Part shown: positions 26,101 to 29,100 of the stretch, piece after piece
How the letters are laid out: every line of letters starts with the position of its first letter
Numbering within the stretch: the first letter of the stretch is position 1
DNA from: Escherichia coli
GTDB taxonomy: Bacteria; Pseudomonadota; Gammaproteobacteria; Enterobacterales; Enterobacteriaceae
DNA: 64,000 bases
Assembly: GCF_044324785.1 (NCBI RefSeq)
Contig: NZ_CP172127.1
Strand: one strand, 5' to 3'
Program-made: the position numbers

Positions 26101-29100
26101 CGAACAAGAAATTAACCAGTCGCTTGCGAAACATAATAATTTCTCAAAAGATATCGGTTTACCCGGCGTGGCTGATGCCCATATTGTTCTGACAAACCTG
26201 ACCAGCCAAATTGGTCGCGAAGAGCCGAATAAGGTTACCCTAACCGGAGACGCCAATCTGGACATGAACTCCCTGTTCGGTAGCCAGAAAGCGACCATGA
26301 AACTGAAGCTAAAAGCGCTGCCCGTGTTTGATAAAGAAAAAGGCGCGATCTTCCTGAAAGAGATGGAAGTGGTCGATGCGACGGTACAACCGGAAAAAAT
26401 GCAAACGGTGATGCAAACATTGCTTCCCTATCTGAACCAGGCATTACGCAATTACTTTAACCAGCAACCTGCTTACGTCCTGCGCGAAGATGGCAGCCAG
26501 GGCGAAGCAATGGCGAAGAAACTGGCGAAAGGCATTGAAGTTAAGCCAGGCGAAATTGTCATTCCGTTTACTGATTAATCACGAGGGCGCATTCGCGCCC
26601 TTTATTTTTCGTGCAAAGGAAAACGTTTCCGCTTATCCTTTGTGTCCGGCAAAAACATCCCTTCAGCCGGAGCATAGAGATTAATGACTGCACCATCCCA
26701 GGTATTAAAGATCCGCCGCCCAGACGACTGGCACCTTCACCTCCGCGATGGCGACATGTTAAAAACTGTCGTGCCGTATACCAGCGAAATTTATGGACGG
26801 GCTATCGTAATGCCCAATCTGGCTCCGCCCGTGACCACCGTTGAGGCTGCCGTGGCGTATCGCCAGCGTATTCTTGACGCCGTACCTGCCGGGCACGATT
26901 TCACCCCGCTGATGACCTGTTATTTGACAGATTCACTAGACCCTAATGAGCTGGAGCGCGGATTTAACGAAGGCGTATTCACCGCTGCAAAACTTTACCC
27001 GGCAAACGCAACCACTAACTCCAGTCACGGCGTGACGTCAGTTGACGCAATCATGCCGGTACTTGAGCGCATGGAAAAAATCGGTATGCCGTTACTGGTG
27101 CATGGTGAAGTGACACATGCAGATATCGACATTTTTGATCGTGAAGCGCGCTTTATAGAAAGCGTGATGGAACCGCTGCGCCAGCGCCTGACTGCGTTGA
27201 AAGTCGTTTTTGAGCACATCACCACCAAAGATGCTGCCGACTATGTCCGTAACGGAAATGAACGGCTGGCTGCCACCATCACTCCGCAGCATCTGATGTT
27301 TAACCGCAACCATATGCTGGTTGGTGGCGTGCGTCCACATCTGTATTGTCTACCCATCCTCAAACGCAATATTCACCAACAGGCATTGCGTGAACTGGTC
27401 GCCAGCGGTTTTAATCGTGTATTCCTCGGAACGGATTCTGCGCCACATGCACGTCATCGCAAAGAGAGCAGCTGCGGCTGCGCGGGCTGCTTCAACGCCC
27501 CAACCGCGCTGGGCAGTTACGCTACCGTCTTTGAAGAGATGAATGCTTTGCAGCACTTTGAAGCATTCTGTTCTGTAAACGGCCCGCAGTTCTATGGCTT
27601 GCCGGTCAACGACACATTCATCGAACTGGTACGTGAAGAGCAACAGGTTGCTGAAAGCATCGCACTGACTGATGACACGCTGGTGCCATTCCTCGCCGGA
27701 GAAACGGTACGCTGGTCCGTTAAACAATAAAAATCGTAGCTTCCTGTTGTCATTAGGTTATTTTGCCTGTATAAATAACCAGTATATTCAACAGGGGGCT
27801 ATTATGCGAATTGAAGTCACCATAGCGAAAACTTCTCCATTGCCAGCTGGGGCTATTGACGCCCTGGCTGGCGAACTTTCCCGCCGTATTCAGTATGCGT
27901 TTCCTGATAATGAAGGCCACGTATCGGTACGTTATGCCGCAGCGAATAATTTATCGGTTATTGGCGCGACAAAAGAAGATAAACAGCGCATTAGCGAAAT
28001 TCTCCAGGAAACGTGGGAAAGCGCCGATGACTGGTTTGTCAGCGAATAATATGCAGTGATTTTTGTTTTTGCCGGGTCGCCCCGGCTTTTTTATTTTACT
28101 TACAAATTTCGAGTACAAAATTTCTACACTTCCTCAAAATAATTGCACAATATGCTAAAAAAATATGAATGACATGCTGTTTTATTGTTCATATAAATCT
28201 TAAAAGCAAAAATTTATCTGTTCCCCCCTTTAAAAATTCGGTGAATACCCTTACTTATTGGTATACTGAAGTTGCTTCAGATAAAAACGCATTGAACCTC
28301 GAATAACGTTGTCTAGTAACACGAATTAGGGGGCCATGATGGAAAAAAATAATGAAGTCATTCAGACTCATCCGCTCGTAGGGTGGGACATCAGCACCGT
28401 TGATAGCTATGATGCGCTGATGTTGCGTTTGCACTACCAGACCCCAAATAAGTCCGAGCAGGAAGGGACTGAAGTTGGTCAGACGCTCTGGTTAACCACT
28501 GATGTTGCCAGACAATTTATTTCGATATTAGAAGCAGGAATCGCCAAAATTGAATCCGGTGATTTCCCGGTAAACGAGTATCGGCGTCATTAACATGACA
28601 TGACCATCCACCCAAAAGGCACCTCACCGGTGCCTTTACCATTTCTGGGTTGTATATCTGCATTCAGTTAATTACTCTGCTTAAACCATGAGAGCAGAGA
28701 GAAAAAAATGAAATACGATCTCATCATTATTGGCAGCGGTTCCGTAGGCGCTGCCGCCGGGTATTATGCAACCCGTGCCGGTTTAAACGTGCTAATGACC
28801 GACGCCCATATGCCACCGCATCAACACGGCAGCCACCACGGCGATACGCGATTAATTCGCCATGCTTATGGTGAAGGCGAAAAGTATGTCCCGCTGGTCC
28901 TCCGCGCGCAAACGCTGTGGGATGAACTCTCCCGCCACAACGAAGAAGATCCCATTTTTGTACGCTCTGGCGTCATTAACCTTGGCCCGGCTGATTCCAC
29001 ATTTCTCGCCAACGTCGCCCACAGCGCCGAACAGTGGCAACTCAACGTTGAAAAGCTCGATGCGCAAGGGATTATGGCCCGCTGGCCGGAAATACGCGTC

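What the first reader, a model, noticed from the sequence alone, without database searches (positions are those of the whole stretch)
26584..26686. pyrC control region with PurR-type operator and a leader hairpin that occludes the ribosome-binding site
The palindrome ggaaaacgtttcc at 26618-26630 matches the PurR operator pattern, immediately followed by tatcct. Downstream, ccggc (26646-26650) can pair with gccgg (26666-26670) directly abutting GGAG before the ATG. This fits the known pyrimidine-sensitive start-site switching mechanism, in which longer transcripts form the hairpin and are poorly translated.
Basis: partly seen in the sequence, partly recalled or inferred. Interest (0 to 1): 0.25.

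Follow-up and report, generated by a model that had tools for sequence, protein, structure and literature searches.

The report
Known E. coli pyrC control region

Summary
The window is E. coli chromosome (mdtH-grxB-yceB-pyrC-dinI). Positions 26584-26686 are the yceB-pyrC intergenic region, and they are 100% identical to the K-12 strain C600.

In order, the region contains:
- the yceB terminator (26583-26609);
- a 16-bp PUR box, AGGAAAACGTTTCCGC (26617-26632);
- the -10 hexamer TATCCT (26634-26639);
- a CCGG start cluster (C7 = 26646, G9 = 26648);
- a 5-bp stem, CCGGC 26646-50 / GCCGG 26666-70, with a 15-nt loop;
- the Shine-Dalgarno GGAG (26669-72);
- the pyrC ATG (26684).

Rfam's curated PyrC_leader family (RF02372) matches 26634-26683 at 68.7 bits, above its cut-off of 50.

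Folding shows that transcripts starting at C7 form a -8.1 kcal/mol hairpin that pairs the GG of GGAG. Transcripts starting at G9 keep only 3 bp and leave GGAG free.

In 60 of 67 distinct enterobacterial pyrC upstream regions the same layout recurs. The -10-to-CCGGC spacing (6 nt) and both arms are invariant, around a loop that varies from 15 to 36 nt. The PUR box sits 1 nt from the -10 in 56 of them.

Novelty: already known. Interest is low.

The parts
26583..26609 (+). Intrinsic terminator of the upstream gene yceB (stem GAGGGCGC/GCGCCCTT, loop ATTC, then a T-run). It marks the upstream boundary of the pyrC control region.
   Evidence: Terminator scan, inverted repeat I2, and the yceB stop codon at 26576-26578.
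26611..26616 (+). Probable -35 element GTGCAA (17-bp spacer to the -10; 3 of 6 matches to TTGACA). A weak promoter.
   Evidence: Inferred from spacing. The TGCAA(A) bases are >=80-95% conserved across 48 distinct enterobacterial upstream regions. The consensus promoter scan did not call it.
26617..26632 (.). PurR operator (PUR box) AGGAAAACGTTTCCGC, with its dyad centred on CpG 26624/26625. It spans -29 to -14 relative to the C7 start, so it fills the -35/-10 spacer.
   Evidence: It is the only match to ANGNAAACGTTTNCNT (up to 1 mismatch) in 64 kb, against 0.22 expected. It is present exactly 1 nt upstream of the -10 in 56 of 60 homologous leaders. PurR control of pyrC is cited in PMC6245113 and PMC3159470.
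26634..26639 (+). -10 hexamer (Pribnow box) TATCCT.
   Evidence: Sequence. It is the first 6 positions of the Rfam PyrC_leader model. TAnnnT is conserved in all 60 homologous leaders, at a fixed 6-nt distance from CCGGC.
26646..26648 (+). Alternative transcription start cluster: C7 (26646) and C8 (26647), favoured at high CTP, and G9 (26648), favoured at low CTP and high GTP.
   Evidence: [quoted passage not shown] The 6-nt spacer is invariant in 60 of 60 leaders. The starts were not mapped here.
26646..26650 (+). 5' arm of the leader hairpin (CCGGC). It is complete only in C7-initiated RNA.
   Evidence: Folding, the Rfam consensus structure, and invariance in 60 homologous leaders.
26651..26665 (+). 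Hairpin loop (AAAAACATCCCTTCA, 15 nt).
   Evidence: Folding. Loop length and sequence vary (15-36 nt) among homologues while the arms do not.
26666..26670 (+). 3' arm of the leader hairpin (GCCGG). Its last two G residues are the first two bases of the Shine-Dalgarno sequence.
   Evidence: Folding, Rfam structure, and GCCGGAGC >=95% conserved.
26669..26672 (+). Functional Shine-Dalgarno sequence GGAG ('SD1'), 11 nt upstream of the ATG.
   Evidence: Sequence. GGAG is invariant in all 60 leaders, with 5-7 nt spacing in most other lineages. The paper that identified the functional SD is Liu & Turnbough 1994, whose title is cited in PMC4491880. That it found SD1 to be the functional one is from my memory.
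26676..26679 (+). Second SD-like AGAG ('SD2'), 4 nt upstream of the ATG. It belongs to a short extra segment specific to Escherichia-type leaders and is probably not used.
   Evidence: Sequence. It is absent from the non-Escherichia leaders, whose GGAG-ATG spacing is 5-7 nt. Its non-function is recalled from Liu & Turnbough 1994 (memory).
26634..26683 (+). Rfam RF02372 PyrC_leader match (-10 hexamer through the leader).
   Evidence: 68.7 bits against a gathering score of 50, E = 3e-11 to 1e-8, model positions 1-50 of 50.
26684..27730 (+). pyrC coding sequence (dihydroorotase, 348 aa), the regulated gene.
   Evidence: ORF list and RefSeq annotation of the identical region in strain N3.

Best explanation
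This is the E. coli pyrC promoter and leader. It carries two superimposed and already characterised controls.

(1) Purine control. Holo-PurR (PurR with bound hypoxanthine or guanine) binds the 16-bp PUR box at 26617-26632. The box fills the spacer between the weak -35 and the -10 TATCCT, so bound PurR competes with RNA polymerase. Repression is modest, a few-fold.

(2) Pyrimidine control by NTP-sensitive start-site selection.
- RNA polymerase bound at TATCCT can start at C7/C8 (26646/26647) or at G9 (26648).
- When CTP is high it starts mostly at C7. The resulting RNA has the full 5' CCGGC, which pairs with GCCGG at 26666-26670.
- That pairing buries the first two G residues of the Shine-Dalgarno GGAG in a 5-bp hairpin with a 15-nt loop, so 30S binding is blocked and the RNA is poorly translated.
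- When CTP is low and GTP is high, initiation shifts to G9. This RNA lacks the two C residues, can form only 3 bp that do not include GGAG, and is translated.

What is shown here: the sequence elements, their spacing, the differential folding, the Rfam membership and the cross-species constraint. What is taken from the literature: the actual start sites, their NTP dependence, the translational effect and PurR binding.
For: Identity of the locus:
- 100% match to the E. coli yceB-pyrC region.
- The 117-nt control region is 100% identical to K-12 C600 and >=99% identical in 5423 of 5424 E. coli genomes. The K-12 experiments therefore apply to this exact sequence.

Rfam: the curated PyrC_leader family matches at 68.7 bits against a cut-off of 50, with consensus stem CCGGC/GCCGG.

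Folding:
- C7 RNA: hairpin -8.1 kcal/mol; P(GGAG unpaired) about 0.000.
- C8 RNA: -5.0 kcal/mol.
- G9 RNA: -3.0 kcal/mol; the GG of GGAG is 83-89% unpaired.
- The cost to free GGAG is 5.3 kcal/mol for C7 against 0.2 for G9.

Comparative evidence, from loci found by a coding-sequence pattern that is blind to the leader:
- 60 of 67 distinct upstream regions (PyrC 78-100% identical) have [PUR box]-1 nt-[TAnnnT]-6 nt-CCGGC-(15-36 nt variable loop)-GCCGGAG-(5-11 nt)-ATG.
- In these 60 the spacer is always 6 nt and both arms are invariant.
- In all 38 distinct leaders, the predicted cost to expose GGAG is higher for C7 than for G9 RNA (mean 4.8 against 1.7 kcal/mol).

Literature:
- Mechanism described in PMC6524683 and PMC4491880.
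- PurR repression of pyrC in PMC6245113 and PMC3159470.
- The PUR-box pattern is unique in the window.
Against: - Folding energy of the single sequence is not distinguishable from shuffles (z = -0.8 for the C7 RNA).
- Because both arms are invariant there is no compensatory covariation, so the comparative evidence is conservation, not covariation.
- If about 35 nt of coding sequence are included, ViennaRNA predicts alternative pairings that partly occupy GGAG even in G9 RNA. The clean on/off picture therefore depends on co-transcriptional, local folding.
- A genome-wide PurR ChIP-chip study did not detect binding at pyrC (PMC3159470), and the box matches only 12 of 16 consensus positions. It is thus a weak operator.
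- The primary start-site mapping papers (Wilson et al. 1992; Liu & Turnbough 1994; Sorensen et al. 1993) are not in the held library. The exact mapped positions rest on a review's wording plus my recollection.
Confidence: 0.95

Rival explanations
1. The 5'-terminal hairpin acts mainly as an mRNA-stability element, as 5' stem-loops do when they protect against RppH/RNase E. On this reading it does not block translation, so longer transcripts would be more stable, not less expressed.
For: The stem begins at the very 5' nucleotide of the C7 transcript. That geometry is known, from general knowledge, to protect some E. coli mRNAs.
Against: The 3' arm overlaps the only conserved Shine-Dalgarno sequence. 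Reviews report that the hairpin-forming transcript is poorly translated and, as a consequence, degraded faster (PMC6524683). Pyrimidine excess, which favours the hairpin RNA, lowers pyrC expression.
Confidence: 0.03
2. The hairpin is a transcription attenuator or pause element, as in pyrBI and pyrE, rather than a translational switch.
For: Other E. coli pyr genes use UTP-sensitive attenuation (PMC4491880).
Against: No T-run follows the stem (GCCGGAGCATAGAG), and the terminator scan does not call it. No leader peptide precedes it. The stem lies only 14 nt from the ATG and overlaps the SD.
Confidence: 0.01
3. The PUR-like box is conserved but is not a physiologically significant PurR operator in vivo. 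It would be only weakly occupied, or used by another LacI-family protein, and all meaningful control of pyrC would come from start-site switching.
For: PurR ChIP-chip did not detect pyrC although it recovered 13 of 15 known sites (PMC3159470). The box matches only 12 of 16 consensus positions. Four homologous leaders have lost the box but keep the hairpin. Reported repression is small (PMC6245113).
Against: The box sits at an invariant 1 nt from the -10 in 56 of 60 leaders. A strong PUR box also precedes pyrC in Vibrio in a different promoter context, which argues for selection on PurR control. Direct binding and purR-dependent regulation are cited as experimentally established.
Confidence: 0.1
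4. Both motifs are chance matches in an ordinary intergenic region.
For: A 5-bp complementarity is common, and the folding z-score is unremarkable.
Against: The Rfam family hit is above threshold. The arms and spacing are invariant across 60 leaders around a hypervariable loop. The control region is more conserved within E. coli than the flanking coding DNA.
Confidence: 0.01

Closest known systems
E. coli K-12 pyrC promoter-leader (Wilson et al. 1987, 1992; Liu & Turnbough 1994) = Rfam RF02372 PyrC_leader
   Same: It is the same element. The 117-nt region is 100% identical to K-12 strain C600, and Rfam matches the full model at 68.7 bits.
   Different: Nothing in the control region differs. 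The window comes from a non-K-12 strain background (100% to strain N3 over 501 nt).
Salmonella Typhimurium pyrC and pyrD, and E. coli pyrD, leaders (Sorensen & Neuhard 1991; Sorensen et al. 1993)
   Same: The same logic applies: alternative C or G starts downstream of the -10 decide whether a 5' hairpin sequesters the ribosome-binding site, governed by the CTP/GTP ratio (PMC6524683).
   Different: The genes or species differ, and the loops differ. Non-Escherichia pyrC leaders have GGAG 5-7 nt from the ATG, whereas here it is 11 nt with an extra AGAG.
PurR operators of the pur regulon (purF, purEK, purHD and others; also carAB P1 and pyrD)
   Same: A 16-bp imperfect dyad with the AAACGTTT core and central CpG. 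It overlaps the promoter, so binding occludes RNA polymerase (PMC6245113).
   Different: The match is weaker (12 of 16). Repression is only a few-fold, far less than for pur genes. The site was not detected by ChIP-chip (PMC3159470).
NTP-sensing by reiterative transcription or start-site switching at pyrBI, codBA, upp and pyrG
   Same: RNA polymerase itself senses NTP pools at initiation. No dedicated pyrimidine repressor is involved.
   Different: Those systems rely on UTP- or CTP-dependent transcript slippage at homopolymeric runs and act on transcription. pyrC has no slippage run, and its output is translational, through an RNA hairpin.

Membership tests
Rfam RF02372 PyrC_leader | Covariance-model score at or above the curated gathering score (50 bits), over the full model. 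| tested here: met
   68.7 bits, model positions 1-50 of 50, window 26634-26683, + strand.
Rfam RF02372 PyrC_leader | A 5-bp stem CCGGC/GCCGG enclosing an A-rich loop, immediately downstream of a TATCCT -10 and upstream of pyrC. | tested here: met
   Alignment to the consensus structure. The pyrC ORF starts at 26684.
NTP-sensitive start-site-switching translational control (pyrC/pyrD type) | A -10 hexamer followed at positions 7-9 by a C-C-G cluster that offers alternative CTP and GTP starts. | tested here: met
   TATCCT at 26634-39, then TTGTGT, then C26646 C26647 G26648. The 6-nt spacer is invariant in 60 of 60 homologous leaders.
NTP-sensitive start-site-switching translational control (pyrC/pyrD type) | Only the longer (C-initiated) transcript forms a stable hairpin that includes the Shine-Dalgarno bases. 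| tested here: met
   In silico, the hairpin is -8.1 kcal/mol for C7 against -3.0 for G9. The GG of GGAG is paired with p about 1 in C7 RNA and unpaired at about 0.85 in G9 RNA. The same direction holds in 38 of 38 distinct leaders.
NTP-sensitive start-site-switching translational control (pyrC/pyrD type) | The start sites are actually used in vivo, and their ratio responds to CTP/GTP pools. | not testable with these tools
   Taken from the literature for the identical K-12 sequence (review PMC6524683). The primary papers are not held.
NTP-sensitive start-site-switching translational control (pyrC/pyrD type) | Hairpin mutations relieve pyrimidine repression, which is exerted at the level of translation. 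| not testable with these tools
   Published genetics (Wilson et al. 1992, cited). Conservation of both arms around a variable loop is consistent with it, but there is no covariation to count.
PurR operator (PUR box) | A 16-bp dyad with central CpG and an AAACGTTT core that matches the consensus aNGcAAACGTTTgCgT. | tested here: met
   AGGAAAACGTTTCCGC has 1 mismatch to ANGNAAACGTTTNCNT. It is the only match in 64 kb, against 0.22 expected, and matches 12 of 16 positions of the ideal palindrome.
PurR operator (PUR box) | Position overlapping, or immediately adjacent to, core promoter elements of a nucleotide-metabolism gene. | tested here: met
   The box spans -29 to -14 relative to C7 and lies 1 nt from the -10.
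PurR operator (PUR box) | Corepressor-dependent PurR binding and purR-dependent repression. | not testable with these tools
   Cited as shown by Choi & Zalkin 1990 and Wilson & Turnbough 1990 (PMC6245113 and PMC3159470). ChIP-chip in PMC3159470 did not recover the site.
PurR operator (PUR box) | Conservation of the site in orthologous promoters. | tested here: met
   Present at the same position in 56 of 60 enterobacterial leaders. A strong box also precedes Vibrio pyrC.

The most novel reading that the evidence does not exclude
The pyrC promoter may carry an additional, undescribed layer of control.
- The PUR box is perfectly positioned and conserved, yet PurR was not seen there by ChIP-chip.
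- Many non-Escherichia lineages carry 19-36-nt loop insertions with a recurring ATGACTGA motif. The curated Rfam model does not recognise these.

The loop or the box could therefore be bound by a further factor (a protein or sRNA) in some Enterobacterales. Nothing here demonstrates this. It is merely not excluded.
Probability: 0.05. Interest if true: 0.3.

Novelty: already known. Interest (0 to 1): 0.08.

Why it matters
The region is a classic example of regulation without a dedicated repressor. RNA polymerase reads the CTP/GTP ratio through its choice of start site, and an RNA hairpin turns that choice into a translational on/off decision, with PurR cross-talk from the purine pathway.

Confirming it here has annotation value only. 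It shows that the first-stage reader can recognise a known regulatory architecture from raw sequence.

The one modest by-product is comparative. The architecture (-10, 6 nt, CCGGC, variable loop, GCCGGAG) is much more widespread among Enterobacterales than the Rfam model detects. The invariant GGAG (SD1), rather than the Escherichia-specific AGAG, is the conserved ribosome-binding element.

Tried and rejected
1. I tried to read the primary papers (Wilson 1992 PMC205745, Liu & Turnbough 1994 PMC205450, Choi & Zalkin 1990 PMC209125, Turnbough & Switzer 2008 PMC2415746). None is held, so mapped start sites come from review wording plus my recollection.

2. Searching papers for the literal sequence strings found no paper showing the E. 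coli pyrC sequence. The hits contained other sequences, for example an H. influenzae purB PUR box with the same core.

3. The genome-contig scan used the pattern for DDWH.H.RDG. Only Citrobacter (L099), Photorhabdus (L087), a Pantoea symbiont and some Vibrio loci were useful. I replaced it with a more specific metagenome scan.

4. The consensus sigma-70 scan does not call the pyrC promoter, because its -35 is weak.

5. A covariation test of the stem is not possible, because both arms are invariant in all 60 leaders.

6. The DNA inverted repeat CAAAGGA/TCCTTTG, which spans the PUR box and the -10, was considered as a second operator. I rejected it as probably incidental, because it is not conserved in lineages whose -10 is TATGAT.

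7. I looked for a Fur connection to pyrC in the literature and found nothing relevant.

8. Folding with extra coding sequence included blurs the C7/G9 contrast, so I treated local folding as the relevant comparison.
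Full report
**What is there**

The window is E. coli chromosome. A 501-nt query around the finding is 100% identical to strain N3 and is present in 5425 of 5426 complete E. coli genomes, annotated yceB (lipoprotein) and pyrC (dihydroorotase). The local gene order is mdtH-grxB-yceB-pyrC-dinI-bssS-solA, all on the + strand of the window. The finding (26584-26686) is the yceB-pyrC intergenic region.

The 117 nt from 26584 to 26700 are >=99% identical in 5423 of 5424 E. coli genomes and 100% identical to the K-12 strain C600. The 501-nt stretch that includes coding flanks is >=99% identical in only 530 genomes. 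The control region is therefore under tighter constraint than its neighbours, and the published K-12 experiments apply to this exact sequence.

**Checking the observation**

Reading 5' to 3':
- The yceB stop codon is followed by an intrinsic terminator (stem 26583-26602, T-run to 26609).
- A weak -35-like GTGCAA lies at 26611-26616.
- The 16-bp PUR box AGGAAAACGTTTCCGC lies at 26617-26632.
- After one base comes the -10 hexamer TATCCT (26634-26639).
- After six bases (TTGTGT) comes CCGGC (26646-26650).
- A 15-nt loop follows, then GCCGG (26666-26670).
- GGAG lies at 26669-26672, AGAG at 26676-26679, and the ATG at 26684.

Three corrections of detail are needed:
- The 13-mer is not a perfect palindrome. 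In the PurR register the perfect core is AAACGTTT, centred on the CpG at 26624/26625.
- TATCCT begins 3 nt after the 13-mer.
- The 3' arm overlaps GGAG by its two G residues rather than abutting it. This overlap is the mechanistically important point.

**Is it more than chance?**

The degenerate PUR-box pattern (up to 1 mismatch) occurs once in 64 kb, at this site, against 0.22 expected. CCGGC-N10-40-GCCGGAG occurs twice against 0.26 expected. The other occurrence, at 19885-19907 on the - strand, is unrelated.

Folding energy alone is not persuasive. The 55-nt C7 transcript has z = -0.8, and 37 of 200 shuffles fold as well. The case rests on three other lines of evidence, set out below.

**Line 1: curated family**

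Rfam release 15 contains RF02372 'PyrC leader'. It matches 26634-26683 on the + strand over the full model (1-50 of 50) at 68.7 bits, above the gathering score of 50. The consensus structure is the CCGGC/GCCGG stem itself.

**Line 2: differential folding with alternative 5' ends**

With the 3' end at 26675 or 26690:
- RNA starting at C26646 forms the 5-bp hairpin (-8.1 kcal/mol). G26669 and G26670 are paired with probability about 1, and P(GGAG fully unpaired) is about 0.000.
- RNA starting at C26647 has a 4-bp stem (-5.0 kcal/mol).
- RNA starting at G26648 can form only GGC/GCC (-3.0 kcal/mol). That stem does not include GGAG, whose G residues are 83-89% unpaired.

The cost to free GGAG is 5.3 kcal/mol for C7 RNA and 0.2 kcal/mol for G9 RNA.

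One caveat applies. When about 35 nt of coding sequence are added, alternative pairings partly occupy GGAG even in the short RNA. The clean switch therefore assumes local, co-transcriptional folding.

**Line 3: comparative analysis, blind to the leader**

It did yield Citrobacter werkmanii (L099), Photorhabdus (L087) and several Vibrio loci.

A second scan, of metagenome contigs, used a pattern for the coding sequence [13 protein letters not shown][DE]MLKT. Together with L087 and L099 it gave 116 usable loci with 67 distinct upstream regions, whose PyrC proteins are 71-100% identical to E. coli's.

Sixty of the 67 share one architecture: [PUR box]-1 nt-[TAnnnT]-6 nt-CCGGC-(loop 15-36 nt)-GCCGG-AG-(5-11 nt)-ATG. 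Within these 60:
- The spacer from the -10 to CCGGC is always 6 nt, which places C at position 7 and G at position 9.
- Both arms are invariant, while the loop varies in both length and sequence.
- The conservation profile shows islands at TGCAA(A), the PUR box, the -10, CCGGCA-AAA and GCCGGAGC, with noise elsewhere.
- There are 38 distinct leaders, and in all of them C7 RNA pays more than G9 RNA to expose GGAG (mean 4.8 against 1.7 kcal/mol).

Because the arms never vary there is no covariation. This is evidence of constraint, not a compensatory-change proof.

The PUR box is present 1 nt from the -10 in 56 of the 60. Four leaders (L154, L181, L184, L213) have lost it but keep the hairpin.

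GGAG is invariant and usually lies 5-7 nt from the ATG. The 11-nt spacing and the extra AGAG are peculiar to Escherichia-type leaders. This independently supports GGAG (SD1) as the functional Shine-Dalgarno sequence.

**Literature**

A 2019 review (PMC6524683) describes the mechanism for E. coli and Salmonella pyrC and pyrD:
[quoted passage not shown] - Those residues allow a structure that sequesters the RBS.
- Reduced translation also shortens the mRNA's life.

PMC4491880 gives the same summary. [quoted passage not shown] My recollection, not checked here, is that this paper found SD1, 11 nt upstream, to be functional and SD2, 4 nt upstream, not to be. Those distances match 26669-72 and 26676-79.

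PurR repression of pyrC is cited as experimentally established (Choi & Zalkin 1990; Wilson & Turnbough 1990) and as modest (PMC6245113; PMC3159470). PMC3159470 also reports that PurR ChIP-chip recovered 13 of 15 known sites but missed pyrC. The primary mapping papers are not held.

**Mechanism**

- Inferred from position: PurR with its corepressor sits on 26617-26632, at -29 to -14 relative to C7, and competes with RNA polymerase.
- Inferred from the literature: RNA polymerase at TATCCT chooses C7 or G9 according to the CTP and GTP pools.
- Shown in silico here: the two 5' C residues pair directly with the two G residues of GGAG and complete the stem. Without them the SD is free.
- The rival readings (stability element, attenuator, chance) are each contradicted by the absence of a T-run, by the overlap with the conserved SD, and by the conservation pattern.

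**Verdict**

The element is the known pyrC promoter-leader with its PurR operator, so it is already known and of low interest.

Minor by-products:
- The Rfam model reaches threshold only on short-loop leaders (the window, L099 and L145) and misses long-loop leaders with the same architecture.
- Some lineages lack the 5' arm or the PUR box.
- Vibrio pyrC has a strong PUR box in a different promoter context.

Noticed in passing
window 26583-26609 (+): An intrinsic terminator of yceB (8-bp GC-rich stem, ATTC loop, T-run) occupies the first quarter of the reported interval. It abuts the pyrC -35 region.
   Followed up: yes
window 2571-2739 (-), 4600-4936 (+), 37249-37291 (+), 47386-47477 (+), 53078-53162 (+): Other Rfam gathering-score hits in the window: SraB sRNA, RNase E 5' UTR element (rne5), ES036 (CssrF) sRNA, ES056 sRNA, and an 85-nt tRNA. 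All are known E. coli features.
   Followed up: no
L123, L124, L126, L133, L146, L149, L153, L154, L160, L164, L166, L180 (upstream of pyrC): These loci carry the same -10/6 nt/CCGGC...GCCGGAG architecture, but their loops are 19-36 nt and they do not reach the Rfam PyrC_leader gathering score. The curated model therefore under-detects the family. Many of the long loops share an ATGACTGA motif.
   Followed up: partly
L154, L181, L184, L213 (upstream of pyrC): These leaders keep the -10, the CCGGC/GCCGGAG hairpin and the spacing, but have no PUR box (best match 7-9 of 16). PurR control appears to have been lost independently of the start-site switch.
   Followed up: partly
L159, L177, L187, L223 (upstream of pyrC; PyrC about 79-89% identical to E. 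coli): This lineage retains GCGCCGGAGCA at the SD but lacks the 5' CCGGC at -10+7. L177 and L187 instead carry a perfect 16-bp palindrome AAAACGTTAACGTTTT further upstream. Its mode of regulation is unknown.
   Followed up: no
L022, L052, L102 (Vibrio spp., within about 110 nt upstream of the pyrC ATG): A strong PUR box (for example GCGTAAACGTTTGCGT) lies downstream of a TATCAT hexamer, and GCTCC...GGAGC complementarity involves the SD. PurR control of pyrC may thus be conserved in Vibrionaceae with a different leader layout.
   Followed up: no
L087 (Photorhabdus caribbeanensis, upstream of pyrC): A variant layout: TATCAT, 6 nt, CCGGC, a loop of about 48 nt, then GGAGCCGG, so the SD precedes the 3' arm instead of following it. 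The predicted C7/G9 difference in SD accessibility is smaller (6.2 against 4.1 kcal/mol). No PUR box is present.
   Followed up: partly
window 26614-26620 / 26636-26642: A DNA inverted repeat CAAAGGA / TCCTTTG brackets the PUR box and overlaps the -10. It is not conserved in lineages whose -10 is TATGAT, so it is probably incidental.
   Followed up: yes
window 26584-26700 compared with 26400-26900: Within E. coli the control region is >=99% identical in 5423 of 5424 genomes. The 501-nt stretch that includes coding flanks is >=99% identical in only 530 of 5425. The non-coding control region is thus more conserved than the adjacent coding DNA.
   Followed up: yes
window 26617-26632 (literature): The genome-wide PurR ChIP-chip study (PMC3159470) explicitly lists pyrC as one of two known PurR sites it failed to detect, and says the reason is unclear.
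   Followed up: partly
window 19885-19907 (-): This is the only other CCGGC...GCCGGAG match in the window (CCGGCCTGCAGTGCAGGCCGGAG), a GC-rich hairpin unrelated to pyrC.
   Followed up: no
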